Under the pieces are notes generated by a model. That model was not told the DNA's origin. It made no database searches and saw only the letters and a program-made list of their open reading frames with translations. A DNA stretch of 60,000 nt from Botryllus schlosseri. Taxonomy: Eukaryota. A program made the position numbers and the translations under genes. Positions 15,120-56,103 of this stretch are shown here, in pieces. The number at the start of each line of letters is the position of its first letter. Position 1 is the stretch's first letter. The DNA lies in assembly GCA_051294905.1 (NCBI GenBank), contig CM119372.1, positions 13,022,001 to 13,082,000 of the forward strand, written 5' to 3'.

Positions 15120-15138
15120 CTGTGCATGTGCTGTGCAT

Positions 15139-15597: not shown

Positions 15598-17055
15598 CTG
15601 TGCATGCCTCTTATTTTCTTATTTACTTCGCCTAGGCTAAGGTGGGTGTCTGATCTTAAAGGCTAGCCTACTCCAAGTTGTTTCGACACCTTCCTATCTT
15701 TTCATTGTATCGCAGTCTTGTGATGTTTTGAAACGATGAAAATATTAATAAACCTGATTGATTGATTGTTTAACCCGCATGATACATCATAAATGCGTGA
15801 TACTCGAAAATAGGGTTTTTCCGCGTTTTCTAGATATTTTTCCGCGAGGTAAGGTTGGGCATGTATATAATCGTTAATGAACGAATGTTTGATCAATAGA
15901 TACTCCAATTTTTAACTATTACGACAGCTCTCTGCCATTTATGAGGCCTAATTCGCATTACTCGAAAATTGGTGTCTCTCAGTTTCCGCGTTTTCTAGAT
16001 ATTTTCCGCGAGGCTAGGTTGAGCTTCTATAATGGTCAGGGTCACTGACCGAATGTTTGACCCTCAGATACTTCATAAGTTCAATTTTGAACTTATTGTA
16101 CCACGGACCTCTGGTGTTTATGAGGTATGACTTGCCTTAGGGCCTATACACTAGGCTACTCAGAAATTTGTGTCCCGCAGTTTCCGCGTTTATTTCTAGA
16201 TATATTCCGCCAGGCTCTGTTCAGCGTCTGTTAGGGTCAGTAACCGAATGTTTAACCGTCAGATACTTCATAAGTTTTATTTCTACCTATCACGACAGTT
16301 CGCGGCTGTTTGTGAGGTTAAATCTGCTTCATACTCGAAAATTGGGTGTACCGCAGTTTCCACGTTTTCAAGTTATATTCCGCGAGGCCAGGTTGAGCGT
16401 GTATAATCATTAGTGAACGAATGTCTGACTCTCAAATACTTAATAATTTCAATTTTCAACTATTACGACAGTTCTTTGCCATTTATGAGGCCTAATTCGC
16501 CTTACGCGAAAATTGGTGTCCCGCAGATATATTTTCCGCCACGGCAGGTTTAGCATTTATAAGGGTCAGTGGCGTAATGTTTAAACCCACAGATATACTT
16601 CATAAGTTTAATTTTCAACTATTGCAACAGTTCTCGGTCACTTGTGAGGCCTAATTTTTCTTATAGGCCTACTCCAAAATTAGGGTGTCCCGCAGTTTCC
16701 GCGTTTTCTAGATATTTTACGCGAGGCCAGTTTTACAGTTACTCTCTGCTAAGTCGAGTTGGGCGACTACACTGGACATTGATCGTATTTTACTCTTGTA
16801 TACTTCATAAGATTAATTTCCCGACGATAATTAGCTCTTACCGATACGAGGCTTCGCCCTCTTTCTCATAAACTCGAAGTTGGGGTGTACCGCTGTTTCG
16901 TCGTTTTAGGCTTTAGAGTTCCGTCTATGAGATCTACAAATGTCAATGAACGAGTGTATCGCGTTCCGCTTTTTCCGCTGTTTCCTCGTTTCAATGCCTA
17001 CTATGTGATCTATAAAGGTCAATGACGGACTGTTCCGCGTTTTCCTCTGTTTCAG

Positions 17056-26643: not shown

Positions 26644-29600
26644 TTATTCAGGTTTATAATAAGCCTGGATAGGTCTTCGGAAACCTGAATTGAAAACAAA
26701 AATTTCAAACTTGACTTACTAATAGTGAAAGTGCAGTACGGCGAAAAAACTAGATTTAGAAAAGATCCGTACATGAACGTAATTTGAGTACTCGGAACAA
26801 ATATATATCTGGTGATGCCTTTCAGCAAATGAAGCGCCCTGCCGCCGAAATTATTTTAACAGCCAAGCTTCTTTCTGTGATGGCTCGAAATGATTTTCAT
26901 GATCAAATGGTGCATGTGTGGGTGGAGGTTTCTGTCATTTCGCCAAATTTTTAATGGACTCGTCTTTTCTACAATAACAGTCAAGTCACCATACCTTTAC
27001 AATTATTCTTTTCCGGCATCTTCAAGTGTTCCACCCTGTCGAATCCTATTTCCTTGGTGAGGATAGCGGGCAAATCGTCTGGCCGGATTTTCAACTTCTG
27101 ATAATTCTCATTCAATTGTTCCTGAGGACAACAAAAGCAAAACCGTTTGAAATCGAAAATATATCTGTGGCAGATTATAATAAGCGACAAGGGATTGCAA
27201 AACAGACACATCTTTTGCGCTCACTTACACACATCTTTCTTTTGGACGAATATGAGCTCCAAGGCTGAGGTTCAAAGATGAACATCCCACCGGCGCGCAG
27301 CTGCTTGAAGGCTCTGTCAAATGGTCACGCTCATTTAGCAAATACTTTACTGATATACGCAAATCATAAAAATTCTAGGCCAGTAAGAATAATCGAATAT
27401 AATGGTGATTAGCCTACTGCAGATGATGTAGTAGATTCCGATATTCACACATTGTTTGTAATTGTATACCATTCTTACGTTACACTATCTATTTCAACTT
27501 CAAATTTCTAATTGCAATCTCCGTATTTACTGACAGCCGCTCCCGACTAGTGTCAGTTGAAAAGCTTGAGTGACTATATTACGAATATGAACTTGTCATT
27601 CGTCGCAATTTTGCATGGCAATTTCTACAACAAATCACATAACAACATCGCCATACCTCCGAAACAAGCGAAGCAGACCCTCGTCTCCCCAGTTCATGTG
27701 AATCCACTTTGAAACGCTCATGCACAAAATGATGTCGTACTCGGGTTCTTGGAAGCGTAGGAACTCATCTTTCTTTGGAACGTAATTGCCCTGAATGTGG
27801 GAAAAAAGTTTGTGATGTAATTGATTGTAACATTTTTGGTTCTACTTCAAAGTTGACGGTACATACTTGGAAGAAGTTGACGTTGTTTGGAAAAGCCGCC
27901 GTTGTATCGTCCTTACCGGTTTCAACTGGTGGTGTAGCTAAAGGCCCCATGGTTATGGCCATGGATGCTGGAAACTTGGATGCACTAAAAATATTTTAGA
28001 TTTCGGCATAAACAGACAGAATTAATCATGATAGTGACATGTTCATCAATACATGTCGAATGTACTGATCAACACAGCAAACCCGTGTGGCATACCATTT
28101 TCCGGGCTTTGCGTTGCTGGCATAGTGTCGAACGTTGTTCCGCGCGATTCTGATCAACTTATCGTCGATGTCAACACCAACTATCTTCCTCGGTTGAAAC
28201 TCTTTCGCGATCAAAAGCGTCAGATGACCAGCGTTGCAGCCAACGTCGAGAACGTCTTTGTCTGTGGCAGAAATTTGTAAATTACTCATTCAGTCAGCAA
28301 CAGTGCGCGGCTCTACAGAAATTAAGCATTAGGTTGAGGAGTTTTGTTTTTACGGTACTACTATAGGCACAAAGCACTGCTGTAGTTCAGTCATGTATAT
28401 TCATGATTAAAAAAGGTATCGAGCAATATAGCTCCCACACTAAATCATGTAGTGTACAATACTCAAGGAAATACACCTCTGTCTAGCTTTAAAACCAATA
28501 AAGCCAAACTTATAAGTGCCACACTGATCCACACCGAACATTTTCATGTAATACATGATTTCACGGCTTTTTAAGAATCAACAGTACATGATATAAACCC
28601 TGAAAATTTCAATCAACGACTGCAGATTTAAATCGTCGATTCCCATTTCGACGCTCACATTTGGAAAGTACAACTTAAACTTTTGGGTAACCAACAGAAC
28701 CGACATCAATTGGGCCTTCTACAGCACCCTAGCTGGGATTCAAACACCTTCTGTCAGGCTGGCGGTTAGCATAACAGTTACATATACCAGAATCGCAATG
28801 CGACACAAACCCACCTTTGAACCATTCCTTCTTGAGACATTCCATCCTCACGTCCTTGAATTTCTCCTGGTTGCGATACCCGTAATACTGCGTGTAATTA
28901 CCGTACTGGAACCTCGCGTTGTACGGCTTCTTCTTGCCTGAAGTTTTATTGGTGCTGGTACTTTGCGAGGTCGTGTCACATTGTGATACATCCGACACCG
29001 CAGCCTTCACTGGTGCTGCCAGTTTCGCAGCGGCATCGCTTTTATTTTTGCTAGCAACCGTCAGGGATTTTTTCGGAGAGGTTTTTTCAGAGTTCATATA
29101 ATTTTGCGCGGGGCTAGCGCCCAAAGTCAAATTCCCGGGATTGATAGTGCCGATCGGTTTTTCCAACACATTTTCGAGATCTCTTTCTGTAGCAGTCCGA
29201 CTAGGATGTGCCACTGTGTCGTTCACAAAAGAACTGAAGAAATCCCCTTCACAATCTCTCTCAGACAGATTCTCGCTGCACGTACGCCGCCGTTTAACGG
29301 GAGAAAAGTATTCTCGGTGGATTATCTTCTCGCTGCCGCACCGGAGCTTGTCGTCAACTTCGGTTGATTCGGTTTGCATTCCCGCGTCACTTGTGCCATG
29401 TTTTCCGGCTTGCCTGCGTCTTCGATGCTTCGAGTTTGTGTGCGCTTTCGAGCGTCGCGTGTTTTGCGGGATGGCGGGCGACACGATGGGATCACGGACA
29501 TTTGCCTGTGAAGCAAACATTTTGAACATAGTCTTGGACAGAATTGAAAATGCTCATCCGAACATATCACTGCTTGCTCAGATATGGGATTATTAGCGAG

Positions 29601-32600: not shown

Positions 32601-35176
32601 GGGGATATGGCCTGGACGAACTGATATGATATTACCCGACACCTAGATGACTAAGTGTGTTGGGCACAAAGGCTGGATGTGATGTGCGATTGACAACATA
32701 CAAGAAAAAAGGTGCAATTTTCAAAATTCTTGTGCCCATGTATGACATGCACCCCCGATTTTACGACAAAAGAATTGATTAAATTGCGCGCATTATACAT
32801 TGAAAATTACAGTACTTGATACTGTGAAATACTAGGGGAAAGGTGAATGCATTTCCAGTTTCGTTGAAATACGTTGCTTTCTGATAATTGTGATCATTCA
32901 ATTACCGCCCCTCCAGCAGTTACATTAATAACCTAGTTGAAAGACAATGACACAACACAATAGTTGATACCTTCGATTCTAATTTACTTTTGCCGACAAG
33001 GACAAACCCTGTCTACACTATGGTACAGTAAAATGTTATAATTGGTGTAATCACCGAAGCGCACTAACCTGCGAAGCTGCAACTGGAATAGTCAACCGCT
33101 TCACCGGTGACAGATTTCGCTTCTGTGAGTCGACCTTTGTAGTGACTGTGCCAACGTCTGAAGCCCCGTTGCCTTCATCAACATTCCGATCGTCCTCGAT
33201 GGACGTCTGAACCGAGTTCTGATCCTGATTTTTCAACAGCTGACTCTTCCTTCGTCTGTTTCGTTTACTTCTGGTTCGAGAGTTTTTGCTGGCTGCCGAA
33301 GGCGGCGTCAAGTTGCTGGAGTTCAGCCCAAGCGGATCGGTCACGTCGACCGGAGTAATAATATCGATAACAGAGTTTCTGGGTGGTAATGGTGACGACG
33401 CAGGCGTGACCGCATTGAGGGCTCGGTTAATGTTCTCATCCATCATAGAGTTCAGATTGAGAGGGTCGGTAATATTTCCGCCGAGAAGAAATTTTGTGGG
33501 CAGTATTATCCCCCTATTGCTCGTGTGGCGCTTGTGATGTCCGCCTGAGCCCTTTCTTCGCTTTGCGTTATGGCTTGTCAACGCACCTGCAAGCAAAGAT
33601 TGGTAATAAAAAATCAAACATAAGCCGAATCCAACTTGGAATCAGATAGAGCCTTAATTCTCTCAGTGCAAACAGATATCATGCTATAACGAGCATGTTG
33701 GCAGACGCCAAAAAAAAAAACCTTGTGGTATTTTCAAAAAATTTTCAACTAAGCGTACTTTGTTTCTAAGATTTGTCTTTATTATTTACTTAATTGATGA
33801 AGACTGGGCGGAAATGTTGACCTTCCTTTAGTCATCGGGAAGCTCTGCAACTATCATGTCAATGATGCGCCATTGGCGGAAGTCATCACCCTGTTTTTCG
33901 TCATCATGTAGCTTAAAGTGACCTTTTAATCATTTTTGTCATCAACTTCCCATGGTCTAAGGGGAATTTTGTGTAAGTAGCCTTGGCTACAATAAGTTTT
34001 AGGGGGTCCATACAACCAAGGAAAATTGTGAAGTCTGTGCTAAAAATGTCGAAGAACCCCTGCCATAGATTTATTTCATTACAAATAATCTTCAGAATAA
34101 CAAATACGGCTAACCAACGTATCTGTGCGCGTTGATATAAATTATGCCAGTGCTCAAGCAATTATTCCTTAGATTTATTCATGAGCTCACTTATGTCACA
34201 ATGTCACTGTACACCATTTAAATCTAGCAAAGCAGTTGAACATAGGACTATAATCTGGCAGCAAGAGATTACAAATTGGATTTTGTGATGTTCATATTTA
34301 TAGGTTGGATGACTCAGTGTGGTAGGCTACATCATCCTAAATTATATTACTGCCCAGTGCCCGTGATAAAGAAATCAGCATTAGCACATATTACGGATGT
34401 TGCGTGGAATTGGTCAAGAAAGAATGTTCTTATTTTTTAATTACAAAACAGTGTTCTAGTAATTCAATTTTCACTGAAAAATCTCTTTACATCGATTATA
34501 TCATAGGGAATTACATCACACAGAATATAGGCTACTACCATGTTCACCGTAGAATGGAAGAGGCTCAGCGGCATCAGCGCAAATCAGCTCTGGTATATAT
34601 TGTCTAACGAATCGTTTTAAGACTTTTTGTTATACTCGTTGCAAGCAGAATATGATATCGAGTCATAAATTCGCAGTTAACTAGCCGAATCGATAACATA
34701 AAACATATATCAATACCAAGAAATCAATACAAATTAGTGAGCATAATATCCTGTTTCAAATATAGCCTCTATGAATAGGATTGCAGCCTGCCTCAAATAT
34801 CGCAAATAGTTGCAGGACGTTACAAAGTTACATCAAATCGGATGCTCAGCTTCAACAACTGATTTCGACCAATTAGTTGAATTTAGGATATTGAACAGCA
34901 ACCGATTTTTCTACATATATTACCAGTTCCTGATGTTTCGCTAACGCTGTTCCGTCTTCTTCTCTTTTTACGGTTCAGTGACTTTGCAGGTGGTTGTTTG
35001 TCAGTTTTTCCATTTTCTTCCGCAACAAGCAACTCGGGAGCACTTGTGAAGCCAGGTTGCAAGAAACTTGTATCCTTGGAATTCTGTTGCAGGCTAGGAC
35101 TAGCTTCAGTCTCGGTGGATTTCAAGATACACGCGGTGCCTTCTGTTGAAGGTGACACGGCTTTTGTAGCGGCCAT
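26644..35176 (-). CDS. MEPCE: 7SK snRNA methylphosphate capping enzyme (Bin3 family SAM methyltransferase), ~710 aa, 9 coding exons
   Basis: Exons 35176-34924, 33586-33069, 29505-28815, 28261-28096, 27984-27867, 27790-27657, 27313-27229, 27121-26995, 26684-26644, all GT-AG and phase-compatible; motifs [75 protein letters not shown]. Confidence 0.96.
29925..32812. mobile_element. Tc1/mariner-type MITE hosting a nested Sola-like element (MEPCE intron)
   Basis: TA|CCATAATTTT...AAAATTACAG|TA; ends homologous to 21670-22521. Confidence 0.75.
30251..32637 (-). mobile_element. Sola2-like DNA transposon relic with ~800-bp TIRs
   Basis: 30251-~31050 is the inverted copy of ~31870-32637; GGG...CCC ends with 4-bp TSD GACA; internal minus-strand fragment [13 protein letters not shown]...[16 protein letters not shown] resembles invertebrate transposase N-termini; superfamily inferred from termini, TSD and TIR length. 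Confidence 0.7.
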
Positions 35177-37281
35177 TCTGCCGGATAATGGACAATATGC
35201 AATATTGCTGAGTCAGGGTTCAGAGCCAATATACAATTTCTATTAAGCTCTGAATCTCATCTCATTAACCAGCAAATTATCTGAAAGCAAATATGGTATG
35301 GAAGTTAAATGGTGAATTACTCACAATAGTCATCAAGAAATTGATTCTGTTTCTGGTAGGCTTTGACCCTCAGTTTCAAAACAATTTTCAAGTTGGAAAT
35401 ATTCATTTTGTTTGCTTGATTTTGCTATAAATCATCTTTACTAATAATGATTTTGTATGCTATAGGTATAGATTTTTAATAGCGAGATTCGTCTCAAAAA
35501 AGCCAAAAAAATCGGATGTATCAAAAAGGACAAAAACTGTCTAAATAAGCACGATATGTCTTATAAGATGTGCTTTATTGGTCTGATTTTCAAGATGGAA
35601 TGATGGTGAGTTGTGACTATTTTATATGGTCTTAAAGAGCTGAATCAGTCTCAATTAAAATACCTCACTTTATCAGCAAGACTGAAATTGCTGAAAATCA
35701 GACCAAATCATCCTCATGAGTCATGTCTCAAATTTGTGTATTTTTTTTTGTAGTGACACCGGAGAGAGAGAGAGAGAGATATGATATTCTTTCTCGCCTG
35801 CACCATCGAGATGCTTTGGCGACGGAGTTGCGATACGGCCCCATGAGGTCATCTAGTCTGCGCCCCCGTTTTTTTTTCTCCTCCATGCTATCCGTGATTG
35901 CTGAGCGCCTAGATAACATCATAACAGAGTACAGAGCAGAGACAAGATCCCATGCAACTCGCATTACATTGCCCCCTTTTGTCCGCTGAAATTATGAAAA
36001 ATATTGCGTAATTAAAACTTCAGTACCTGACGACACCATACTACAATAGCAAAAATAATCAACAACTACAAAACAATTACTCAAAGAGACGACACAACCG
36101 CACCTCCATCCTCCGCCACGGCCGAGCGGCAACTGCATCGCGCAGCTGAAGTTCTCTTGTATTGTACTCATGTTGCTGCGACGAATCTATCTCGTATTGT
36201 TATCACGTGACATACGTTCGAAATACGTTGTCGAGTTCTCTCAAAACGTGCTCAAACGCCGATTGCGTCAGGCCTACGATACGCCTATCATATGCAGGAT
36301 TATTTAGTTTAGATTGGCTCATTTCATTCATTTCTTTATTAATGTTGATCATTGCAAAACATCTCAAGGTTGCGACACAGTATGAAAGTACCAAATACTT
36401 CTATTATTGTCACATTCGAGAATGAAACGATGTAGGTCTAGGAAGACGCGGTAAGAACAGCATATCTTTTCATTGTATCGCAATTTTCGTGGTTTATTAA
36501 ACTGATCAAAATTGCCAATAAATTGAATACAATATAACAAAACACAGCATCAATAATCACAAAACACGAATACCATTATTTGCTACACCTACCAGGCCTA
36601 CTGATACTAAGGCTTTCGTAATAATATCAGTCTGAACATGTATCGAATGAGTAATGTTTCAATTTACTGCTGCTTCAGCGAAATCGTACATTGCCATTTA
36701 GGCTACATATTTCAATATGTTTATTGTTTATGGATACCCACAAATTTGGATGGTGCAACAAACAATGATGCAGATACTGAGCTATATAGAAAAGCTCAGT
36801 GGATATATAGATAACTCACCTACGCAGGTTAGTTGTCAATAGTGGATATAGCCAAAACAATTATTTGGATATAGCCCATAGGTTGGGTAGTGCCACTGCC
36901 AGTGATATATTTTTATCCGTGGAAACTGTTTTGCATCATTGGTACGGGGTCACGCATCACAGGATCGAGAGGCGTGAAATTGGCGCGAAGATTACACAAC
37001 AAAACAACTGGTCGTCTCTGTTTGTTGTCGTTATACTACTTTTTGTATAGTATCGTATTTTCTGCTTTGGAAAGCATATCGATTCCAATGTATGTGTACA
37101 TTCAATCAATTGAACACTTCGTTTGATTTACCTGTATTCAAATAACTTTGAAAGTGAAAATTACGGTACCTTTTCGTTAATTTTCAGTGTACAGGTATAG
37201 GACAACGATACGGTACCTACGTGACACCTATTGCCGTATTTTGCAGCGTAACTGACCTAGAATCATCGGTGATAAGCGATA
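35177..37281. promoter_or_regulatory. Divergent (putative bidirectional) promoter and 5'UTR region between MEPCE and ZCWPW1
   Basis: Predicted start codons point away from each other ~2.1 kb apart; minus-strand acceptor at 35281 suggests an upstream non-coding MEPCE exon; TSSs not determinable from sequence. Confidence 0.55.
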
Positions 37282-40200
37282 ATGCCTGGATTCAAACCAA
37301 AATTTGCAGCTCCCAAAATTGTATCACCAACCAATCAAGAGAAATCAGGTCAGTATGTGCCAATAGGTGAAACCGATTACGTGATATTACACAAATGAAT
37401 TCCAATGTGTATACTGGTTCCTTTTCTGAAATTTATATTCGCCTTTAGTCGGTAGCCCTATTCTACTGTAGGCCATGGGTATACCTGTGCCTGTAACAGT
37501 CCGATATAAGTCTCTGATAGGTATGATGGAGTTCTACAGGAGAAGGCCTTACAACTAAATGGAGATATGGAGCTCCTCAGTGATACTTATTCTGTAGAAA
37601 GAGAATGATACTGGAACGCCTGGTGTTAGAAGAATAACTATAGATGACTTTTGCAAGATATTCAATAAATAAAGGCAGGAGTATTGCTGTCCCTGTGGTG
37701 ATTTCTACCATTTGTAATACATTGAAGTGGTATGATCCTTACAATTGATGTGAAAGATGATCTGGAGAGCACGATTCTGTAGACCGGTTGTATGTTTTGA
37801 AAAAGTATTGCCACAAACTATACAATACAATATATCGTGTGGATGAAATATCGGGTGATATCAGCCTTCGGTACAGAAGTTAGCTAAATTTTCTAAGTAG
37901 ACTAACTGATCTGGACAAAGTATACATGAAAGAAGTGTCATATGTTTCATCATGAACCACAAGAGAACGCATCGCTCTATCGAGTAAGGCAGTCTGCGAC
38001 TGTGGAACAGTATTTTGCCGGCAATCAAACGGTTGTCAAGCCTGTCCACATTCAAGTCAAAGTACGAGCATATTCTACTATGTGACATTAGGGTGGTTCA
38101 AAAATAACCTTTTTTCCTGAATCTTGCAGGTTACTTGATTAAATCGTTAGGTTGCCTTAAAAAACGACGCACACCAAATTTGAATTCATTCCAACCAATA
38201 TTCGCGGATTTCGTAGAGTTTGAAAATTTTGAATTTGCCTAGAAATGCAAAAAAAAAATTTTTCAAATTTTTCTGCCAACCCCATGAAATTGTTGCGCTG
38301 TCTTCGAAAAAGATGCAAAACAAATTTGACTTAATTCGAAGCCGTAGAAGTGGAGTTATTTCAGTTTTTCTTTGATAATTCTGGGATTATCCTTGATTGG
38401 TGGATCATCTCAGAATTATCATCAAAAAACTTGAATAACTCCGCTTCTGCAGCTTGGAATTGAGTCAAATTTGTTTTCCATCGTTTTTGAAGACAGCGCA
38501 ACAATTTCATAAGGTTGGAAGGAAAATTTGAAAAAAAATTTTTTTTGCATTTTTAGGCAAATTCAAAATTTTCAAACTCTACGAAATCCGCGAATATTGG
38601 TTGGAATGAATTCAAATTTGGTGTGCGTCGTTTTTTAAGGCAACCTAACTATTTAATCAAGTAACCTGCAAGATTCAGGAAAAAAGGTTATTTTTGAACC
38701 ACCCTAATGTGACATATTGACTTCACCTACTGACCGACTCATGCCGCTCCATTTTCACTGCTTATCCTTTGATGTTATTTTCTGTTGCTTTTCACTCATT
38801 GTGCCTCTGATAATTACATGTTCTGGACCAAGTTGGGTATCGGATTAAACGACTTTATTCCAAGTCGTTTTGACTCCTTCCTATATCTCTCCGTTGTGTC
38901 GCAATCCTGTGCTGTTTTGAAGCGATGAAATTACTAATAAACTGATGATGATGAAACGCTGTTCCATTTCGAGCAACTGAATTTGGAGTGTGTTCTGTCT
39001 GTTTACTACTGTGGAATGAAATTTTGATTCTTTTTCAGGTGATACCAAAACTGCGGTATGTGACACTAATAAAATAAAATCAGCCAAGAAGAAATCCACC
39101 GTTTCATTAACCGACTCTCAGTATGAGGACTTGTTTTCTACTGTTTCTAAAAGAGTACTGGAAAAAAATTTCTTAGATTTGGATGAACGTTTTGTCGGAA
39201 GCCAAGAAATGGAGGAAGGTAACGTTTTCGAAACTGATTGTAAATTAAGGCAGGGTTTACATTCATGGTATCTTCCATGCCAAGATTAATACTAGCATAC
39301 AGACCTATTCATTCAATTAAATAATCTTGCACAAAGTAGCATAGTGCACAAAATATACAGCGATACGACCACAATGTGGACTGTGTGGTCATTCAGTCAG
39401 CTGCAGTCATGACGGTTTTGGTGCATAGATAAGGATCATGATATGACTGTATGTCAATAACAAGATCATAAAAGGAATAAGAAAAAAAAGTCCTACAGCA
39501 TCGGATTCTTCGTGTCAATTGTTAAGGGCACCTCAACGGCTATACTGTGTTACCAACAAATTGAATCTCAAAATGTTTCATGGCTTTAATATAGAAAATA
39601 CGAGGAAGCTACAAATTGCCATGTTCATGTATCAGTTCGATTGTCATTTCTGACAACTTCCTTACTTCTGTATCAATAGTATATGGATACAACACACGTG
39701 TCTGCTCGTTGTTCAAATCATAGATAAACATGATGGTGGAGAGGCCCCTAGTGTGGAACTATATTTTACCTGCTATCAGAGCATCCCGAAGTATAAATTC
39801 AAGCAGCTTTTAGTGGATTAATACTAGTATCTGTTTCCTGATCATGGGATCAATTTTTCTACTACCGTATTAGGCTAGATTCTCATCTGTATCTACTCTG
39901 TATACCTCTGCATTTAACCATTAACGATTTTAAAAAGGCTGGCCATTTGCTTGACTGGCTCCACCAAGTAGTTTCGAAACCTTCCCATCTTTTCATTGTA
40001 TTGCAAGCTTGTGTTAGATCTGATGAAATCTTTGTTGAACTGAACTTAACTGGGGTGCTTTTGAAGAGGCTTGTCAAGTGAACGCCTAGACTTCATATAT
40101 GGTAGTTAATTCTGCGATATATAGTTGCTTCTGTCACCGCAGACGTGGACAAATCAGAAGAACAGCCGAAGAAAAAGAAACATAATGGGAACAAAGGTCT

Positions 40201-43200
40201 GCTTGTTAATTTAATTGAATGCATGCGGTTATTGAAACAGTGCTCATTCTCAAAGAAAACACTGCTCCAGAAGTGGAAGGATCAGGCAATGAAAATCAAG
40301 AACGTGCCGATCCATCAGAAAGCTTTACGAAATTTGTGTTGAAAATTTCTCCTACTTTGTAAGCATCATCTGACGTAAGGCTTTTGTTTGCATTTGTTTA
40401 TTTTTATGTTCTTTTCAAGGAACAAACAGGATAATGAAATCACACCTGTTGTCAGTCCTCACGAAGTAAGCAATGTCTTGATCAATAAGCCCAAGCCGAA
40501 ATTGCAACCGATAAAAAGAAAGCCGGCATTCCAATCAAAGAGAAAAAGTCTGGAATACTCGGAAATATCAGGTAATAATATGTCATCATTAGGGCAATTT
40601 TTTTCTGCCCTTGGAAAACATAATTTTTACAAAATTTTGACCTCATGTGTGTAAATGAGTTTTTTTTTCATATAATGTTGTAATTGTACTATTTATCTTC
40701 ATTTCTGGTTGGAACTGTCTGTCCTTACGAAGTAGTTTGACCTGAAAAGAAAAATTTTTTGGCTTAAAAATTGGCAAATTTTCATATGAAAAAACTTTAT
40801 TTCAACGAAATATGGAGAGAAACTCCAGTAATTGCATCACGCGTTATGTTAGAAATTGACAATTTTTTTGCCTAACGCTACAATTTTAACTATTTGGACA
40901 TGTCAAAGAAAATTGCCGTCCCTAGTCATTAGAAATGTGAAGGAATTCATGTATTTGCGTTGCAGTATGGTGCAGAACTGGTCCGGCCCCGTACTGATAA
41001 AATCAAATTTACTCTTAAGATCAGCACAAATTTATTTGGATCTAAATCAGCTACCAGTGCCAGACAAAGGCGTGATTTTATTTTACTGTATAAATAGGGA
41101 TAGCAAGATGTGATTCGGGTTCAGTATTGACAGTTTGGGAAATAGCAGATGGTCCTAATAAGAGAGATCAGCCTATAACACCAGCAGTGATGTATCCAAG
41201 GGGGGTAGGGGGTCGGAACCCCTCCCATTTCAAAATCCTAAAAATTGATGTCAAATATTGCCTTTATTATTTGCTAATTTATCGGTTCAGCATAGTCATT
41301 TTTTTGAATGATAGAGCAAATATGGCTCTTTAATGTTATTTAGGGGGTCAAAGACCCCTTGGAAAATATTTGAATTATGCGCAGAATCAGTTGAACCGAT
41401 AATAAAAAGTCGTTATATTTCACTAATTCCGTACGCATTCTGCGCTGTTATGCTACATTTCAGCTGTAGCAGTTGCTGACTTTGTCAACTTTCCTCCTTC
41501 GTTTTCTCTCTCGCCTTGCCAAAATGAGAGACACATTTCACAGAAATCTAATTTAATTGGTCAACACGATATCGATATGTAGCAATTGCAAAAACGAAGC
41601 TGTCGGCAATCAACATCACCCGCCTCACCGCTCGCCTTGAAATCCTAATTAAGGATTGCAGACGTGCTGATTGATCAGCAAGACACAGACAGGCACCACT
41701 GGCACCAGTACGACAATGCTATAATAAACCCACACTGTCTTCGTGACTATTTACATTTCAAATTACAAGCCTAGCAATCCATATTCCCGATTGTTAGGTG
41801 GCTTGCTGTTTTTGAAATACAGGCCCATGTTGGCGCTGAACTAGAGAATGGAGTAGGCCTAGTAGCCTAGTAAAGTTAACCCAATGATATCAGCTGACAA
41901 TTTTCTCCGTTGCTCAAGTTATTATCCTGGTGTGTAGGCCTACTGTGTAGTAAATGACTGACGTGCGTGCGTGCTAGCAACTAAGGTCAGGTTATCTTCG
42001 CGCGTGCAACGCAGTCGATCGTGCGACTGATAAAGCCATCGAAAAGCATGCATTCGTGAACACTGCATGTGCACAGTTCTGTGTGGCGATCGCTCTCTTC
42101 TATGTGATGGTTAATTACACTTCTGATGTGTCAGTGAAAAATCAAGCCTTAAGAAAGAGTAGTACTGCGCACCACGAAGTCTCTCTGACGTCATAAAGAC
42201 AAAATATGCTACACGCGGTGAAACCCCCACCCCCTTTGATCTCGGCTGGATACGCCATTGGGCACAAGCTACACATTTCTGCTGTCGCAGTATTCTGAAT
42301 TGAAATGAGCAAGCACTACCATTCAATTTGTATTGCACAATTGATAGGAAGTAACTTCTGTGTTTTCCCTCGGTCATCAAATTCTCTCTTCGATGCAGTA
42401 TGCTTTTATCACAGCATATAGATCACACAAAGCGGTTCATATTCATGGAAATGACATTTGTTTCATCTTCACAAGGCTATTCATCATGCTGTTCAGTCAT
42501 CGAATGAAACATTATTTTTTGGTTAATTGCGCTTGATATTTTCTCCAGTTTCATCCATGGACCCGAAGGCCTAATTCTCTATCTAGAACCGTGGTTCCTA
42601 AACTTTTATGACTTGTGGCACACTAGAGAAATTAACAAAACACTTACGGCACACTTACAAGAAAGTTGCTTTTTGAAAATGAGAATTATATGGTTATGCA
42701 TTGACCATGCATATTTACACGAACATTTATACGACTGAAACGAGGTTGCAACATGCCCGCATTTCGTTAACAATTCCGAGCAGTCTTGTGTACAGCTATC
42801 AATTACAATCAACAACAATAGTCACGTTCACATATTCCTGGAGATGCATATGGCAATAAAATTCTGATTGCTTTTGTACCTTTCATGGATTTGGGAGGAG
42901 ACGGTTATAACTAGGGCAAGTTTTTGTTGCAGTTAAATCCGTGGAAAGTTGCATTTATTTTTCACAAAAGTTGCAGTAAAAAGTTGCATTTATTTTTTCA
43001 CGAAAGTTGCACTAAAATACCACATTTTGGTCGGTTGACCAAAAAAAAAGGTCAACTTACCAGTTCCACTCCCAAAATACAATTTCCCATCCACATTCTC
43101 CATTGGTTGACTAAAAAAAAGGTCAACTTCCCTGCTCAGCTCCCGAAATACCCGTTAGAGCGTTACTTCAGTGCTGATTTACGGTATTTCAGTCGAATTT

Positions 43201-46200
43201 GGCCGTGTATTTCACCAAAATTCTCAAAAAACTGACATAATCAAGCGATCTGTTTACATATACTGTCAAAAATTTCCAGTAAAAAGTTGGTTGCATGAAA
43301 AATCGAATAAACTTTCATGAAGAATCAAAAAAGTTGCATGAAAAAAATGGACAAAAGTTGCACTTTAAGATTCCTTCAAACAGCTTAAAACAGCATTCTA
43401 CATAACTTCAGAGTATTTAGGAAGCTGCTGGAAGCTGTAAAATAATGTTGCAAAAGTTGCAAAAACTTGCCCTAGTTCTAATCATCCATTTTTGTGGAAA
43501 CATTGTTTTAATATTGCTTGATACATTTCTTCCTAATAGACAAACTAGTCATCTAAACTTGTGAACAGCAAATCCTCAGAAATAATATTGCAGTACACAC
43601 AATTTGGGAATCACTGATCTATAACATACATACTAAAGTGCTTGGCTACAGTTGTTTGTATGTGTTTCCAGAAAATGATCGTTCAATTTCTCCAAGTAAA
43701 TTTGAAACAAGCAACGGGGAAACATGCGAATCAGGTTGTTGAGCGGTTACTGTTGACCGGCTGATTTTTTACCGGTATCGTTTCTCATTCAGGCACATGG
43801 GTGCAATGCACGAGTTGCGAAAAATGGCGTCGTTTACCGCATTGTGACGATCCTGCGTTGTTACCTGACGTTTGGACGTGCTCGATGAACCCTGTCACAA
43901 AGTATTCAAAGTAGGTGTCAGTCGCGTCTGATGCGAGTAGAGTTATGCCGTAACAATATATCTCAAACAGATGCAATGCACCAGAGGAATCTTGGGAAGA
44001 TGACGGCTCTGACACGGAATATATTTACACCCGCTTCAGCCTAGGATCAGTGGTATGGGCAAAAATGCCCGGTTATCCCTCGTCAGTGCACAGCTCTACA
44101 TTAAATTCATAATAATGTTGACGTAATACTATCCTGTCTTTGCAGTTGGCCTGCGATGGTAGATTTGGATCCTGATAGCGACATATTTTGTGAAATGTCA
44201 AAAGCAGGACATGCGGTAATGCGAATGCTTGCTCGTTGGTACTATTTGTGCGAGATTTGAAAAGGCTCCCATTTGTTCAGACTCATTATCACGTGGTTTT
44301 CTTGGATGAAGAGGTCAGCAGGGCTTGGATCAGCGATCGCAATATTGAGGTTTTTCGCGGCGATGAGACTCCTGTTAAATTGGTATGTTTCGATTTCCGG
44401 TGCCCACTTGTTTGTGGCTAACTATTACCGATAGAATTGAGCTAAAATACCATGGTATTTGGCGGTGACATCAAATTTAGTAATCATACATCATTTTGTA
44501 AATAAAAATAGGCTATGAGGTATGGGGCCGGGGGTTGATGAGTTATGGGCTTCTGTCTGTATTGAATCAATGAATGCTACTCAGTATCCTAAAAACCTCA
44601 ACTCTTGTCACAGTTACCAACAACTTAGACATACTGTTATCAAGCTGGTCTGGAAGTGGACAATTCATATATTTCAATTCCTGTATTGATCATAAGTCGT
44701 AACGAGTAACAAAACCGGATAACTGAAAATATGTAACATGAAAACCACTATCAAATTACGCTTCTTTCGCCCCCAACTACCCCATCAATTCCAAATGTCA
44801 CAGGTCACAGCAGCTTTATCTCTTGTTAAAGTGGGAGCGACAAACCATAATACATCTTGGAGAATATGATGACATACTGTGCTAACAAACTTTTCTCCTC
44901 TTCATTAAAGACAGTATTGGCAAACGATTTTGAAATCTTTTTTGTGCGAGATTCATCTCCTGTTTTTTCCAGATACCAGTTTAATGTAGCTCTACCAATT
45001 TTGCACTGAGGTCATGCTTCTCTTTTTCATACCTCCCATGCTTTATCTTTTCGTACTGCCAAGCTCAGATTTGGTTCTGAAAACTGGCCTTTTTTGTGGG
45101 TTTCATGATTTACTTCCAAGTGATTGTATATGGGAGGGATAAGACCAACACCTGTATTTTAGTGATAAATATACCGTAATTTTCCAAGTATAGTACGCCC
45201 CCATGTATAATCCGCACCCTTAAAATGGCATGCAAATTCTGGGAAAAAGCCTGTACCCATGTATAGTATGCACCCTGCATTCACAGTGCATGAATAGCTG
45301 TGTTTTGCGATGTCACTGTCGAACAATCATGACATAACCATCGCTAATCATTATGCAATTAACGGCATTGTCTCTAAACGATAGTACAGAGCAGCCAAAG
45401 CCTGCGAGGCTGGCGACACGATAGTTCGGGCCAGCGACACGACGTCTTGCGCACGAGACGAGGCCTATTACAGATGCGATTGCAAATCATTATACAAGTA
45501 ACGTTATTGCCTCTATACGATAGTAGATCGCAGCCAAAGCCTGCGAGGCCGGCGACGCGACATCTTGCACACGAGGTCATATGCGATTATATTTTGGGCA
45601 CATGGCCTGTCGATGAATTAGCGAGAATTGCTGAACACGCGCACAGCAATCAGTGAATGGCCTAATTTGCAGGGGATTGCGTGTGCTGTGCAGGCAGACG
45701 ACTCTCGTTAATTGTCGACACGCTTTTTGCTAATTGGTAGCGCATTACACTGATAAATACAAGTTACTGGCGACCAATGGCTGAAAGTGATGCGTGATTG
45801 GAAACAAACATGAAGATGTGATTTCAAGTTTTTTATCGAGGGAGATTTTTTTCAAGCGTGTTGCTCCCATGTATAATACGCAACCCCCCCCCCCCCGATT
45901 TGAGGGCAAAAAATTGTGAAAATTTTGCGGATTATACATGGAAAATTACGGTATTTAATAGAACCAATCAAATATTGATTTCAGGTACCGGTATATGCTA
46001 ATGCTATGCTGTCCCATACCCCAGCCTATTGAGGTATGGACCGGCCCATACCCCAACCTGCTGAAAGGACCACACCTCATCTTGTTGATTCTCACCATAA
46101 TTTCAAGATCCGAGAGATTGACAAAGCATTAAAACTATTCTCTATATATAGCATATTTCCATTTTCCATAGCATTCACACCATAAAGAAGTCTAATCCAA

Positions 46201-49200
46201 ACATGCACAATGCACATACATAGACTCAAATCCAAATTCCATATTTTCAAATAAATTTACTATAGACCGCAAAAATTATATATGTCTAGCTGAGTCAAAA
46301 ACTCTTGTTGGCCTCATGGCTGTGAGGAACATGGGTGAGTCTGGAGTCCTTTTCTTACAATCACAGAGCTTGACAAGCATATGTGATGTCACAGTCGCCT
46401 GATATGGCAGTGGTCCATACCTAAACAGTGGCCCATACCTCTACTCACTCTCCCCTACACTTGTGCTGTCAATCATCGATCTCGCGTCGATGCGCGAAAT
46501 ATCCGCCAACACGGGGGCCGGCGACCAGGAGAACAATGTAGCGATGGTTGATAAATTACTAAAGTTCCAGGAATTATTTTCTGTTCTGGACTCTGTTATG
46601 TAGTGACACAAATTTCAGAGAAGTCAGGGCTTTAGATATCCCATGCCTGCAACAGCCTGTTTTAGTAATAGCGTAGATCAAAATCTAGTCGAGTTAACAA
46701 GTTAACTGATGTCGAAGTTGAGTGATGAGGCCTGACTCGTGTTTCCAAGCAGCCTTGTGAGAACTTCTGCAAAAATGAATATGCCAAGGAGTTGCATTCC
46801 GCTAAAGCAAGAGCTTGTCAAGCCGTGAAGATGAAGGTGACGGAGAGGATAGAAACGTTCTGTTTTGTCAACAGATTTCGCGGATCATCTCATTGGTCGA
46901 GAGGTCAGTTGTCTGTTAAGAGGTGGCTGTGCCGCGTCATAGAGTGCACCAGTCATATATCGGAAGTTGGTGAATGAATTCAAGCGTCAGGTTTAGTAGC
47001 ACAATTCTCACATGAGCCTAACAGAGGTGGTCAAAGTAGTCATCGTTGGTTCTCAAGTAGAAATAATGTAAATTTCTTCTCAAGTACAGGTAGAAACAAG
47101 AATTTCCAAGTTAATAAAAAAGTAAGTTTTCTCGCCATAGTTTTTCCCACAAAAACTGAAGTATATCATAACCACTTGGGTAAGTAGTGCAGATATGCAA
47201 AGCGACCTGAGTATTATGTGAAAGTAGAAGTACTTAGTACTGACCACCTCTGACCGAGCACCGGCGAATTTTGCCATGACAGTTTTATACTGGCTGTGCA
47301 TTCCATAGTAATTCTATGTCTATGTCAGTGGTCGCAAGCCCAAAGTTTCCTTGGCCGGCAGAAAAAATGTGACCCATTCAGACCAGTGTGTGCCTTACGC
47401 AATTTTGGAGATTGAGTCACTTGAGTTTGCAGACTGCTCGTATTTCTCCTAAAATAATAATAACCAATCGCCGAAATGACTATATGACAGGGTTGTGACC
47501 ATGTTGTCGAATTATCAGCAAACAGAGAGGATCGAATATGAAACCTCGAGAAGTTGAAACTAATTGATACAATGCAATACACTACACTACCCATCTACAT
47601 ATCCGTGAGACACAATTTAAACAAGCCCTATTTGTTGACAAGGAATATGAACGCACCAGCTATATTCTTTCGATATAAAATCATACGAAAGGGTTGGTTA
47701 AGGTGAGCAGTCTATAGAACAGACATACCTTGCTACCTTTTAGACCGTACTTCAAGAGAAAAAAGTCACAAAAGAAAACGGAGCAAGATGCTCACGTTAT
47801 CGAAAGATAAGTCGCGCAAGACGGATCACGTTGCGAACGCAGCAAAAACTCGTATTACGGACGTTGCCAAGAAAGCCGATAACAAGGAGGCCGATGATCT
47901 TGCTTCTTTCGAAATTGAATTGCCCGCTGTTGTGGGGAAATCGAGTACGCCAAAAAGTAAGCGGACTACGATGTTGGTTACTTGGTACTATTCTTGCGAA
48001 TGCTACGGAGCGCTTGGAGCACATAATGAATGAATGATTCAATTTCCAAGTTGTAGCGAAATCGATAATTCTGATCTAGTTTGCAAAAACCTGTGTAGCT
48101 ATAATTCTAGTCTAATTTAGAACACAAAAAACATTTTCTAATCCGAGCCTGCTGGCACAGTAAGGACATTAGTCATTGTTTTTCTTTTGCATGGGCCACC
48201 ATATTCACTCTTTAGCATTCTCTTTACTGTTGCTGTCTGTTCCGTTCAAGGCTTTTGAGGCTGCGAGTAAGAAGTAAATCACAGTTGGTAAAAGCTTGGA
48301 GGCAATCATGTCTGTATTGAATTATGCTACAGGGTTGGTGCGATGACATGCAAAATAAGGTCAGTCGCGACATGCAAAATAAGGTCAGTCACATGCAAAA
48401 TAAGGTCAGTCGCGACATGCAAAATAAGGTCAGTCCGCGCATAAATCCAAATCTATACTTCAGTTACAAATTCAACTCTTTTTCTTATGAGAACGAAATT
48501 CAAAATATATTTCCTGTATAGTAGCCTACCTTCAACATTGACATTCCTTATCTATATCCTAAATCTTAAGATGTTTCAATCAAAAGATTATCATGATTAT
48601 CTTGATTACGAAGTCAGTCCCATATAGAATATTATTATCAGTCCGCGCATAAATCCAAATCCATATTTCAATTACAAATCCAACTCTTTCTCTTATGAAA
48701 AATAAATTTAAAATATCTTTCCTATAAAGTAATTTCATGATTGACATTCCTCATCTATATCCTAAAGCTGAAGATGTTTCAACAAACAAACAAACAAGAT
48801 GATTATTACGATCATGAGGGGATTAGTCGCATGTAGAATATTAACAGTCCGTGTATAAATCCAAATATTTACTTCAAATCCAACTTTTTTCTTGTGCCAC
48901 TGACCTTAGTCTGCAATCTGCATGTGGTGACTGGCCGTATTTCGCATGCGACTGACCTTATTTTGCATGCGACTGACCTTATTCTGCATGTCGCGACTGA
49001 CCTTATTTTGCATGTGACTGACCTTATTTTGCATGCGACTGACCTTATTCTGCATGTCGCGACTGACCTTATTTTGCATGCGACTGACCTTATTTTGCAT
49101 GTGACTGACCTTATTCTGCATGTCGCGACTGACCTTATTTTGCATGCGACTGACCTTATTTTGCATGTGACTGACCTTATTCTGCATGTCGTGACTGACC

Positions 49201-52200: not shown

Positions 52201-55200
52201 CTGTGCGACTTACAAATCGCTACCCCGACCTTTAAACTCGTTTGCAATGAGAGAAACGAGTTTTAATTAGTTATTCATTTATAATATGTGTTATAGTTTA
52301 TACTGAGATCGTCATCGTATGTTTTCATTTTTATATCATTTGATATAAATTTCGAGCCTAATAAATTTATTTTCATCCGCTCAAGACACACAATGCAGTA
52401 TGCAATACACATGGCACACCCGATATAATGAACGGATAGAAGATTGCTGAAACATTATGCCCTGGCCTAATGCCTGATTTAATAATGTTCGCTAAACATC
52501 TTTAGACGCTTCTCCTATCTCTCTTTATTCACTTTATATTTTGTATTACTTTGTATTCGTCATTCACCTGGTCTTTTTTGAAAAGAAGCTGTATAATGTA
52601 TATCAACACTGACGTATCATCGTGTATGCGACGAAGAGGCCGGGCATCAATATACATTATACAATGCCCATCCGGCCAAAGATGACAGCAGTCTCAAACC
52701 ACCTCTTTCAACTTCCAATCCATACACAAGAAGCAAAAAATTCATATTTTCTGGCGCCGGCGGTAATGACATAATGACCTGACGATTTACATCCTGAATC
52801 AAGCATTTTTTCGTAACGGCTGGAAGAGCCCACCGCTGTAACATTGCTCCCGGCCTTCCCCTATATTTGGATATGAAACTTAAATCATTATGTAGGCATG
52901 CAGTTTGCAGACAAGCAAAATAGGATTTGGACTTTAAAATGGCCAAAGGAAACAAATTGAACATTTCAATTTTCACGAAAACATATACCTGTATTTTCAT
53001 TCGAATTTTGCAATTTCAATGTTGAAAGTAGTGTAGGTAGCAAAATAGGCTATATATATGGATTTCAAGTAGAAAAAAGGACAGTCAAGACATACAGAAT
53101 AAGGTCAGTCACATGCAAAATATGGACAGTCGCATGCGAAACACGGTCAGTCGCCACATGCAGAGTGCAGACTAAGGTCAGTGGCATAAGAAAAAAAGTT
53201 GGATTTGAAGTGAATATTTGGATTTATACGCGTACTGTTTATATTCTACATCTCTCTCTCCCCGTAATCGTAATAATCGTCTGATTATATTTTGTTGAAA
53301 CATCTTCAGATTTAGGATATAGATGAGGAATGTCAATCATGAAATTACTATGTAGGAAAGATATTTTAAATTTATTTTTCATAAGAGAAAGAGTTGGATT
53401 TGTAATTGAAATATGGATTTGGATTTATGCGCGGACTGATAATAATATTCTACATGCGACTGACTTCATAATCAAGATAATCATGATTATCTTTTGATTG
53501 AAACATCTTAGGATTTAGGATATAGATAAGGAATTTCAATGTTGAAAGTAGGCTACTATACAGGAAAGATATTTTGATTTTTTTTTCATAAGAAAAAGAA
53601 TTGTATTTGTAATTGAAGTATAGATTTGGATCTATGTGTGGACTGACCTTATTTTGCATGTCACGACTGACCTTATTTTGCATGTGACTGACCTTATTTT
53701 GCATGTCGCAACTGACCTTATTTTGCATGTCATCGCACCAACCCTCCTCGAATTATGTAGCAGTCATGCCCCGGTTTCGCATCTTTTGAGAGTTTATGGT
53801 GGTGTCACATCAAAATTATGCATCTCTCCCCTGCCCTGCTCGAACGCACAGGGGGAGGGCTGAGTTTGAACTTCATCTAATAAATTTGAGATTTGAAACC
53901 AGGCCCGCCAAGAATTTGCACACTAAAGCAAGTCAAGTGAAGGTTCAGAATTATGGAGTCACCGAGCCTATTTACATGGGCGTTCCGACCCTCTCAATTT
54001 TGAAAAAGAGCGTTCCGCGGAGTCGCTTAGAGACGACTTGAGCCGTACCGGTACTTGATAACGAATCCAGACTACCGCTATCTACAAACACATTTCATGT
54101 TCAGATTTCATAAAACCGGCACGTATTTCAACTGAGTGAAAATGGAAGCTTTATCAGTACATAATACTCCTTTTCTACTATGCACGGTGTCTTATTTGTT
54201 CAGCCTCACCACTTATGAAGCGAGTATAACCAACAATATAACTTGCACAACTCACTATCAGAAATAATATATACAAGGCGTAATTGGCCATTCTAGAACT
54301 GCGTGAAAGTATTTCTGGTCATTTCAACTGCCGTAGCATATTCTCGAACTGAATCCCAAAGTGCCGTGTATCACTCGAGGTGCGATAAACGTGACCATGT
54401 AAACTCGATTGGTGTTACAGCACTTCGCCAAGCCGTCTCATGACATCACTCCAAGATGACTGACCATGTAGGCCTCAATGGTCTTACTGATCAAAATTTG
54501 AAAAATATCCAATTTACTTCCTCAATTGAATCTCTTGGAGGTACAGAACTTCAGTACACAATTGAATAGTATATTCATATTCAAATGAACTCGAATATTT
54601 TCGGCTGACACTCGTCAGGGGTCGTCGTCAGCAACTGGTAGAGAATTCAAAAGAACATCGTATCACAAAATATGACGTCACTAGCATACGGATACGTATA
54701 GTACATTGAACGCTCTCGTATTCTAAATTTCATGCTGGTGATGTCATATTTTCCGACACGATTCTTGATAGCCTATACGATGTTGTTTCGAATTCTCTAT
54801 CAGTTTCTGACGATTACCCCTGGTGAGTGTCACCCGAAAATTTTCGGGCTCATTTCAATATTCAATTGAATTGCTCGTTTTAATGTTTTAATGCGCACTC
54901 CCTAATGGCCCAATAAAGTATGATGCATTTCCAATGTCGAACATTGGGTTGCTTGAAGACAGGTACATGAAAAAAGGTTCGTTTTAAAAAGGTTCGCAGA
55001 CCAAAAACGCTACTCACCCCTGCGCTGGTCCACTCGCTCACAAATTTTCTGCTATCTTTTACTTATTGAGCACTTTTCATGTTCCAGAATCTGCACCAGA
55101 GATGGAGTCATTGCTCGAAAAGGCTATGTCTGATCAAGTAAATGTAGAATCTGCAATGGAGATCAAGTCATTGCCTGAAAATAAAAGGTCCAGTCAGGAA

Positions 55201-55873: not shown

Positions 55874-56103
55874 GTGAGCTTGTTTCAATTTACTATACTA
55901 GTGTGCCGCAGACATGGGGTAATCGCGATTAGTAATCGTAATCGATTACGACGATTACAGCATTTTGAAGTAATCGTAATCGCAATCGATTACATTCGAA
56001 AAAAAACCGAAGTAATCGTAATCGTAATCGACTACTTCCCATATCTAATCGATTTTTTTTTATGAAAGAACGATTACTTTTTGTTTGTACAAGGACTATG
56101 ACA

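What the first reader, a model, noticed from the sequence alone, without database searches (positions are those of the whole stretch)
34924..39218. MEPCE and ZCWPW1 head-to-head, as in the human genome: candidate ancient microsynteny
Seen: divergent genes with start codons ~2.1 kb apart in an invertebrate-type, TE-saturated region. Known: human ZCWPW1 and MEPCE are adjacent head-to-head genes at 7q22.1. Inference: the pair predates the split from vertebrates and is held together by a shared bidirectional promoter linking a housekeeping 7SK enzyme to a meiotic chromatin reader; the synteny independently supports ZCWPW1 orthology.
Basis: partly seen in the sequence, partly recalled or inferred. 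Interest (0 to 1): 0.7.

Follow-up and report, generated by a model that had tools for sequence, protein, structure and literature searches.

The report
Ancient head-to-head MEPCE–ZCWPW1 gene pair
In a sea-squirt genome, the gene for an RNA-capping enzyme and the gene for a meiotic chromatin reader sit back to back, as they also do in one other distant animal and, as recalled, in humans, so this looks like an old, probably promoter-sharing gene pair of a kind already known from hundreds of other cases.

Summary
Observation confirmed. A spliced MEPCE/Bin3 gene (− strand, ATG 35176) and a zf-CW+PWWP gene (+ strand, ATG 37282) diverge 2,106 bp apart, with no Pfam hit, tRNA or Rfam match between them. 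The host groups with tunicates. The second gene is most likely ZCWPW1, but no ZCWPW2 sequence was available for the tree. That is 1 of 17 loci; only two had enough upstream DNA, and the other (L002) shows no MEPCE block. A fluke gene model implies a different upstream neighbour. Human orientation is recalled; papers only label sites 'MEPCE;ZCWPW1'. Inheritance from at least the tunicate–vertebrate ancestor is likely (~0.8). A shared promoter as the cause is untested, and contig depths hint at uncoupled expression. This is a candidate new member of a known class (conserved ancient head-to-head pairs). I found it neither in print nor in this scan's earlier notes.

The parts
34924..35176 (-). MEPCE coding exon 1 (ATG at 35176)
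   Evidence: joint to exon 2 in contigs of X1 and X2 and in 2 raw reads of X17
35177..35280 (-). MEPCE 5' leader; splice acceptor just upstream of 35280 (cis- or trans-splice, upstream part unknown)
   Evidence: X2 contig begins at 35278, X1 contig at 35187; acceptor at 35280
33069..33586 (-). MEPCE exon 2, with the conserved N-terminal block also found in L009
28815..29505 (-). MEPCE exon 3 (start of methyltransferase region)
26644..28261 (-). MEPCE exons 4-9 (28261-28096, 27984-27867, 27790-27657, 27313-27229, 27121-26995, 26684-26644): SAM-binding and Bin3 domain, stop
   Evidence: outside the stretch laid with reads
35281..37187 (.). Spacer presumed to hold both promoters; CpG-richer patches near 36000-36550 and 36980-37180; start sites not mapped
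35762..35912 (.). High-copy repeat inside the spacer
   Evidence: depth in thousands, loose ends at 35762-35775 and 35912
37223..37348 (+). ZCWPW1-type gene: 5' leader and coding exon 1 (ATG at 37282); acceptors upstream at 37188 and 37247
39039..39218 (+). ZCWPW exon 2 with the short N-terminal motif shared with invertebrate ZCWPW1-like proteins
40143..43734 (+). ZCWPW exons 3-6 (40143-40196, 40256-40358, 40420-40571, 43672-43734), low-complexity linker
43793..44081 (+). ZCWPW exons 7-8: zf-CW domain with W209, E252, W254, and start of PWWP
44146..46903 (+). ZCWPW exons 9-11 (44146-44215, 44281-44382, 46753-46903): PWWP domain and following helical region
47744..47956 (+). ZCWPW exon 12 (donor inferred)
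   Evidence: (contig depth 25.7 in X1)
55088..55874 (+). Two tentative further ZCWPW exons (limits approximate to a few bases); 3' end of gene not established
38079..38716 (.). Palindromic MITE-like repeat in ZCWPW intron 1; related copies at 14650-15600

Best explanation
These are the tunicate orthologues of MEPCE (7SK/U6 methylphosphate capping enzyme) and ZCWPW1 (H3K4me3/H3K36me3 reader of meiotic break repair). Their 5'-to-5' adjacency was inherited from at least the common ancestor of tunicates and vertebrates. Shown: gene structures, splicing, orientation, spacing, reader residues, and a second animal with the same layout. Inferred: both genes start inside the ~2 kb spacer, in one promoter or two interlocked ones, each reaching its first coding exon by a 5' splice. 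A rearrangement breakpoint there would cut regulatory DNA of an essential housekeeping gene and of a fertility gene, so the junction is rarely broken. The promoter is asymmetric: MEPCE is broadly on, ZCWPW1 is raised in germ cells. The constraint is physical overlap of regulatory DNA, not a shared pathway or matched expression.
For: Window layout and splicing. L009: MEPCE N-terminal block on − (50% over 109 aa, E 6e-24), a 287-aa open 5' model (needs one GC donor), ZCWPW1-type gene on +, ATGs 1,960 bp apart. In L009 both first coding exons have upstream acceptors, and candidate 5'-exon donors at 1859 (−) and 2149 (+) flank a TCTCGCGAGA palindrome at 1954 (3 of 200 shuffles give a match; picked after seeing it). 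Human sites at chr7:100,026,415-100,027,339 are labelled with both genes (PMC7298426, PMC12551033, PMC6119822; passages). Orthology: CW exon scores 33.4 bits to human ZCWPW1 against 18.9 to ZCWPW2; all 45 named vertebrate rows among the 120 listed hits are ZCWPW1; W256/E301/W303 equivalents kept; groups with Ciona and Phallusia ZCWPW1-like proteins at 98/97. Conserved ancient pairs are enriched for 5'-5' orientation (PMC3514665).
Against: No ZCWPW2 in the tree. ESM Atlas top two clusters for the CW-PWWP part of P0066 are named ZCWPW2 (0.93, 0.92). The CW exon alone scores as well to MORC3/4. L009 cannot be placed: the tree puts it among molluscs (98/97), but AU tests do not reject grouping it with tunicates (p 0.54 and 0.56, constrained trees scored higher), and it shares 7 of 23 tunicate and 1 of 11 mollusc marker columns. 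L002 has 6.6 kb upstream with a divergent gene lacking the MEPCE block. A Paragonimus model fuses PRP3 upstream on the same strand. The pair is absent from a human divergent-pair table. No similarity between the window and L009 spacers, and the palindrome is absent from the window. Start sites not mapped.
Confidence: 0.6

Rival explanations
1. The adjacency is ancestral but passive. The genes have separate promoters and the short junction has simply not been hit by a fixed breakpoint in these lineages.
For: Spacer is ~2 kb, above the 1 kb usually used for bidirectional promoters, carries a high-copy repeat and shows no sequence conservation with L009. Contig depth: MEPCE 27.7 and 22.9 against ZCWPW 25.7-32.8 and 2.7-6.6 in runs X1 and X2 (a poor measure of expression). 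Possible losses in a fluke and L002.
Against: Tunicates keep the fewest ancient pairs (197 in Ciona against 600 in human; PMC3514665), so passive survival is less expected. Orientation and start-to-start distance are both kept in the window and L009.
Confidence: 0.22
2. The two genes are truly co-regulated, for example both raised in germ cells because 7SK/P-TEFb control and meiotic break repair are needed together.
For: Conserved 5'-5' pairs are on average more co-expressed (PMC3514665). Both genes have similar contig depth in run X1.
Against: Depths diverge in run X2. Zcwpw1 is testis-restricted in mouse and human (PMC7237205) while MEPCE is broadly expressed (recalled). No shared pathway found in 10 literature searches.
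Confidence: 0.08
3. The CW-PWWP gene is ZCWPW2 or a pre-duplication gene, so synteny marks the ancestral ZCWPW locus and not ZCWPW1.
For: Atlas names. PWWP motif reads PSWP, not PWWP. PMC7237205 dates the split to the vertebrate ancestor.
Against: bioRxiv 10.64898/2026.09.07.749791 reports each paralogue in 27 of 28 cnidarians. CW scores, the long N-terminal arm (CW at 209; median 250 in 117 relatives) and W303 fit ZCWPW1. Human ZCWPW2 faces AZI2, not MEPCE.
Confidence: 0.07
4. Coincidence or convergent adjacency in human, tunicate and L009.
For: Many gene pairs are inspected in a genome scan; the human arrangement is recalled.
Against: About 2-3e-5 per named pair, and an independent second hit in one of the two loci long enough to test.
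Confidence: 0.03

Closest known systems
Human ZCWPW1–MEPCE locus, 7q22.1
   Same: Same two gene families adjacent; CpGs and variants near chr7:100,026,415-100,027,339 carry both gene names. Head-to-head orientation is recalled, not read.
   Different: Tunicate spacer is ~2 kb between start codons with a repeat insertion; MEPCE has 9 coding exons; the human pair is not in the divergent-pair table of PMC3815023.
Conserved ancient microsyntenic pairs of the co-regulated 5'-5' type, e.g. HSPE1–HSPD1 (PMC3514665)
   Same: Non-paralogous neighbours, divergent orientation kept, short spacer.
   Different: Seen here in two or three lineages, not four; the genes have unlike expression and no common pathway; start sites unmapped. 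That paper's pair list could not be read.
ZCWPW1 (PMC7237205, PMC7494361, PMC7314539)
   Same: zf-CW then PWWP, conserved region after PWWP, KWR motif, W256/E301/W303 equivalents, long N-terminal arm.
   Different: Two-residue deletion in the first cysteine pair, first Trp of the PWWP motif lost (all 6 tunicate-clade rows), CW intron moved; function untested outside mammals.
Human ZCWPW2–AZI2 divergent pair (PMC3815023 supplement)
   Same: The paralogue also sits head-to-head with another gene (start sites 22 bp apart).
   Different: Different partner; depth of conservation not examined.

Membership tests
MEPCE/Bin3 | Class I methyltransferase domain with Bin3 C-terminal part | tested here: met
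   Pfam Methyltransf E 3.5e-9, Bin3 E 4.8e-12 and 8.2e-5 on three exons
MEPCE/Bin3 | Best solved-structure match is MEPCE | tested here: met
   5UNA and 6DCB are the only 2 hits at E<=1 for the exon 3 end
MEPCE/Bin3 | Caps or binds 7SK/U6 RNA | not testable with these tools
   needs biochemistry
ZCWPW1 | zf-CW followed directly by PWWP | tested here: met
ZCWPW1 | H3K4me3-reading residues W256, E301, W303 | tested here: met
   W209, E252, W254 in the model; residues from PMC7314539
ZCWPW1 | Long N-terminal arm before CW, with short conserved motif | tested here: met
   CW at 209; motif 19.2 bits; found in 56 of 123 ZCWPW rows, 0 of 149 other CW proteins, but only 8 of 47 vertebrate-side rows. 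That ZCWPW2 lacks the arm is recalled.
ZCWPW1 | CW closer to ZCWPW1 than to ZCWPW2 | tested here: met
   33.4 against 18.9 bits; Ciona 39.2 against 30.9; Atlas names point the other way
ZCWPW1 | Clade with ZCWPW1 to the exclusion of ZCWPW2 | tested here: inconclusive
   Groups with Ciona/Phallusia ZCWPW1-like proteins 98/97 but no ZCWPW2 sequence could be obtained
ZCWPW1 | Literal PWWP motif (a screening filter in PMC7494361, not a family definition) | tested here: not met
   PSWP; Ciona and Phallusia proteins named ZCWPW1-like also lack it, 112 of 120 relatives keep it. The Tyr, second Trp and Phe recalled as the methyl-lysine cage are kept.
ZCWPW1 | Germ-line expression and dual-mark binding at PRDM9 sites | not testable with these tools
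   tissue of runs unknown; no genome held to look for PRDM9
Conserved ancient microsyntenic pair (PMC3514665) | [quoted passage not shown] | tested here: inconclusive
   tunicate (window), one unplaced animal (L009), human (labels plus recall); L002 unresolved; fluke likely lacks it
Conserved ancient microsyntenic pair (PMC3514665) | Non-paralogous genes, conserved 5'-5' orientation | tested here: met
Bidirectional promoter pair | Divergent start sites within 1 kb | tested here: inconclusive
   contig 5' ends 35278 and 37223, both near splice acceptors; too few raw reads
Bidirectional promoter pair | Correlated expression | tested here: inconclusive
   depths equal in X1, unequal in X2; contig depth is a poor measure

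The most novel reading that the evidence does not exclude
The MEPCE–ZCWPW1 junction dates from the bilaterian ancestor or earlier (L009 being a non-chordate) and is a true compact two-way promoter. The PRDM9-pathway readers ZCWPW1 and ZCWPW2 would each have been kept beside a housekeeping promoter for over 500 million years. MEPCE would then be a reliable address for scoring presence, decay or loss of ZCWPW1, and so of PRDM9-type hotspot control, across invertebrates.
Probability: 0.35. Interest if true: 0.55.

Novelty: new member of a known kind. Interest (0 to 1): 0.36.

Why it matters
Invertebrate ZCWPW1 and ZCWPW2 are now assigned by sequence similarity alone, and whether ZCWPW1 is lost together with PRDM9 outside vertebrates is stated as open (bioRxiv 10.64898/2026.09.07.749791). 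A neighbour as conserved as MEPCE gives an independent orthology marker and a place to look for true losses. The tunicate protein keeps the three residues needed for H3K4me3 reading in mouse, although tunicate PRDM9 zinc fingers showed no positive selection in PMC2779102. The class itself is ordinary: about 600 such ancient pairs are known in human, more than half head-to-head.

Tried and rejected
No whole genome is held, so PRDM9, ZCWPW2 and 7SK could not be sought in this species. A word-indexed search with the CW exon found nothing. The HMMER search of representatives returned mostly multi-CW proteins; of the 150 listed only P0066 matched beyond the CW domain. Testing adjacency by neighbouring accession numbers failed: ZCWPW accessions were obtained for 10 named species and for Priapulus and Haliotis, but no MEPCE accessions. 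The rest of the L009 contig could not be read, so its methyltransferase exons were not seen. Of 17 loci, L001 looks intronless, L011 and L014-L017 match only the short PWWP motif, and L003-L008, L010, L012, L013 begin inside or within about 0.6 kb of the gene's first coding signal, or lack its 5' part. No listed holder is on record as RNA; raw runs X17 and X21 gave too few reads for start sites or strand. Promoter motifs (E-box 36204, E2F-like 36980; consensus recalled) and donor scans in the window spacer were not decisive. Rfam miRNA-like hits fall on the MITE and are below gathering score. A weak SWIM hit in the L009 spacer (E 0.002, below cutoff) may be a transposon remnant. Placement of L009 among molluscs was considered and not accepted. 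Literature: ZCWPW1+MEPCE+synteny 0 papers; ZCWPW1+MEPCE 23 papers, 19 listed, all association, cancer or methylation studies by title; ZCWPW1+BCDIN3 3; ZCWPW1+synten 13, 12 listed, none on this pair by title or abstract start. Supplements of PMC7530604 (only selected pair lists), PMC7817982 and PMC8892340 lack MEPCE. The supplement of PMC3514665 and bioRxiv supplements could not be seen and may list the pair.
Full report
1. The observation. The minus-strand gene assembles into 9 exons from ATG 35176 to a stop at 26644, with 8 GT-AG introns and 710 aa. Its 3' exons hit methyltransferase and Bin3 models, and the end of exon 3 hits only human MEPCE among solved structures. The plus-strand gene assembles into 12 exons from ATG 37282 to 47956 in one open frame, with two more tentative exons near 55.1-55.9 kb. 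It has a zf-CW exon (E 8.8e-15) followed by PWWP exons. An unnamed relative, P0066, aligns from the first methionine at 46-49% identity and has zf-CW+PWWP. Four public runs were laid on 32900-48100. Contigs of X1 and X2 show six GT-AG joints that match the models; MEPCE contigs begin at 35187 and 35278 and the ZCWPW contig at 37223. The spacer has no Pfam hit in 31 frames tested, no tRNA and no Rfam match. It holds one high-copy repeat.

2. Host. In a 41-row tree of the CW-PWWP core (186 columns; 17 of the 58 first-chosen rows net were dropped or swapped for locus rows to fit the time limit), the window protein and P0066 join Ciona, Phallusia and two unnamed rows at 98/97. All six have lost the first Trp of the PWWP motif, which 112 of 120 stored relatives keep. 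An earlier scan note also calls this genome a sea squirt (e1-7882443). I did not name the species.

3. ZCWPW1 or ZCWPW2. For ZCWPW1: the CW exon scores 33.4 bits against human ZCWPW1 and 18.9 against ZCWPW2. A three-sequence profile gave 358 hits; of the 120 listed, all 45 named vertebrate rows are ZCWPW1 and none is ZCWPW2 (238 not seen). The CW starts at residue 209 (median 250 in 117 relatives), and the residues matching human W256, E301 and W303, which are needed for H3K4me3 reading in mouse (PMC7314539, passages), are W209, E252 and W254. A short N-terminal motif is shared with invertebrate ZCWPW1-like proteins but only weakly with mammals. Against: the Atlas names its two best clusters ZCWPW2, the CW exon alone fits MORC3/4 equally well, and no ZCWPW2 could be put in the tree. 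PMC7237205 dates the split to the vertebrate ancestor (passage), while a 2026 preprint finds each paralogue in 27 of 28 cnidarians (passages and introduction). I put ZCWPW1 orthology at about 0.9.

4. Is the adjacency old? A scan of metagenome contigs returned 17 loci. Only L009 and L002 have several kilobases upstream of a ZCWPW gene. L009 carries, on the opposite strand, a block 50% identical over 109 aa to window MEPCE residues 68-174 (E 6e-24). It extends into a 287-aa open 5' model, which needs one GC donor, with ATGs 1,960 bp apart against 2,106 in the window. The methyltransferase exons lie beyond the locus edge and were not seen. The L009 ZCWPW core is 39% identical to the window's, less than Ciona (46%) or amphioxus (44%), keeps the PWWP Trp, and has GC3 0.85 against 0.47. 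Its phylum is unresolved: the tree nests it in molluscs, but AU tests do not reject a tunicate grouping and marker columns fit neither well. It is a distant animal, not a proven protostome. L002 has a divergent gene starting about 1.3 kb upstream with no MEPCE block in the remaining 4.3 kb: unresolved or a counter-example. A Paragonimus model fuses PRP3 upstream on the same strand, implying a different neighbour in that fluke. For human, three papers label CpGs or variants at chr7:100,026,415-100,027,339 with both gene names (passages); the orientation is recalled, and one divergent-pair table lacks the pair. Descent from at least the tunicate-vertebrate ancestor is likely, about 0.8.

5. How it probably works. 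In both the window and L009 each first coding exon has a splice acceptor upstream, so real start sites may lie well inside the spacer. In ascidians spliced-leader trans-splicing (recalled) would also hide them. In L009, candidate donors at 1859 (−) and 2149 (+) flank a TCTCGCGAGA palindrome at 1954, recalled as a two-way housekeeping promoter element. This was noticed after the fact, and the window has no match even with one mismatch. The two spacers share no sequence. Contig depth is equal for the two genes in X1 (27.7 against 25.7-32.8) but not in X2 (22.9 against 2.7-6.6), a weak hint of uncoupled expression that fits testis-restricted Zcwpw1 in mammals (PMC7237205). The most likely mechanism is an asymmetric shared or interlocked promoter that makes breaks costly (0.6 for the whole statement). 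Passive survival is the main rival (0.22); true co-regulation, ZCWPW2 identity and coincidence are less likely.

6. What is known. PMC3514665 (passages) describes about 600 ancient pairs in human and 197 in Ciona, 54.8% of the human ones 5'-5'. This pair works like those; it is not shown to meet the four-lineage rule, and that paper's list could not be read. Human ZCWPW2 is itself head-to-head with AZI2 (supplement row). Four searches found no paper on the conservation of this pair, and the scan's notes have none. Papers seen: passages of PMC7237205, PMC8892340, PMC7494361, PMC7314539, PMC2779102, PMC3514665, PMC4769299, PMC7298426, PMC12551033, PMC6119822 and bioRxiv 10.64898/2026.05.22.727067; passages and the introduction of bioRxiv 10.64898/2026.09.07.749791; supplement searches of PMC3815023, PMC7530604 (plus its first part), PMC7817982 and PMC8892340.

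7. Verdict. Real, correctly read and probably ancient, with one new independent example. It is a candidate new member of a well-known class. Its use is as an orthology marker for tracking ZCWPW1 in invertebrates. Interest 0.36; 0.55 if it proves bilaterian-wide with a shared promoter.

Noticed in passing
window 44073-44151: PWWP motif reads PSWP; all 6 tunicate-clade ZCWPW1-like rows have lost the first Trp, which 112 of 120 stored relatives keep (two fluke rows also lose it).
   Followed up: partly
window 43910-43971 against L004, L005, L008, L009, L010: The intron after the CW core lies about six codons later and in another phase in the window than in five other animals; the neighbouring PWWP introns match L009.
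   Followed up: partly
window 20886-21305 (+): Frame with a NICE-3 (C1orf43-like) Pfam hit, E 3.5e-16, convergent with the 3' end of MEPCE; appears to have no introns over the match.
   Followed up: no
window 55088-55600 (+): Exon-like frame with about seven imperfect 19-residue acidic repeats, probably a species-specific insert in the ZCWPW tail.
   Followed up: partly
window 38079-38716; 14650-15600: 640-bp palindromic MITE-like element with related copies; gives sub-threshold miRNA-like Rfam hits.
   Followed up: no
window 48340-49310 and 53080-53740: Paired arrays of a ~21-24 bp tandem unit in opposite orientation, bounding transposon-like elements in ZCWPW introns.
   Followed up: no
window 30975-31774: Degraded transposon-like coding remnant inside MEPCE intron 2, between long related flanks near 30240-30960 and 31860-32620.
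   Followed up: no
L009 1859-2149: TCTCGCGAGA palindrome and a YY1-like site (consensus recalled) between two outward-facing candidate donors in the middle of the MEPCE-ZCWPW spacer.
   Followed up: partly
L002 4294-5300 (−): Unidentified two-exon gene start facing away from a ZCWPW gene about 1.3 kb off; no Pfam hit, no MEPCE block.
   Followed up: partly
P0221, P0269, P0187: CW+PWWP ZCWPW1-like proteins in a damselfly, a planthopper and a horseshoe crab, so arthropods have not lost the gene as a whole.
   Followed up: no
P0185, P0263: Flatworm ZCWPW proteins carry two CW-PWWP units in tandem.
   Followed up: no
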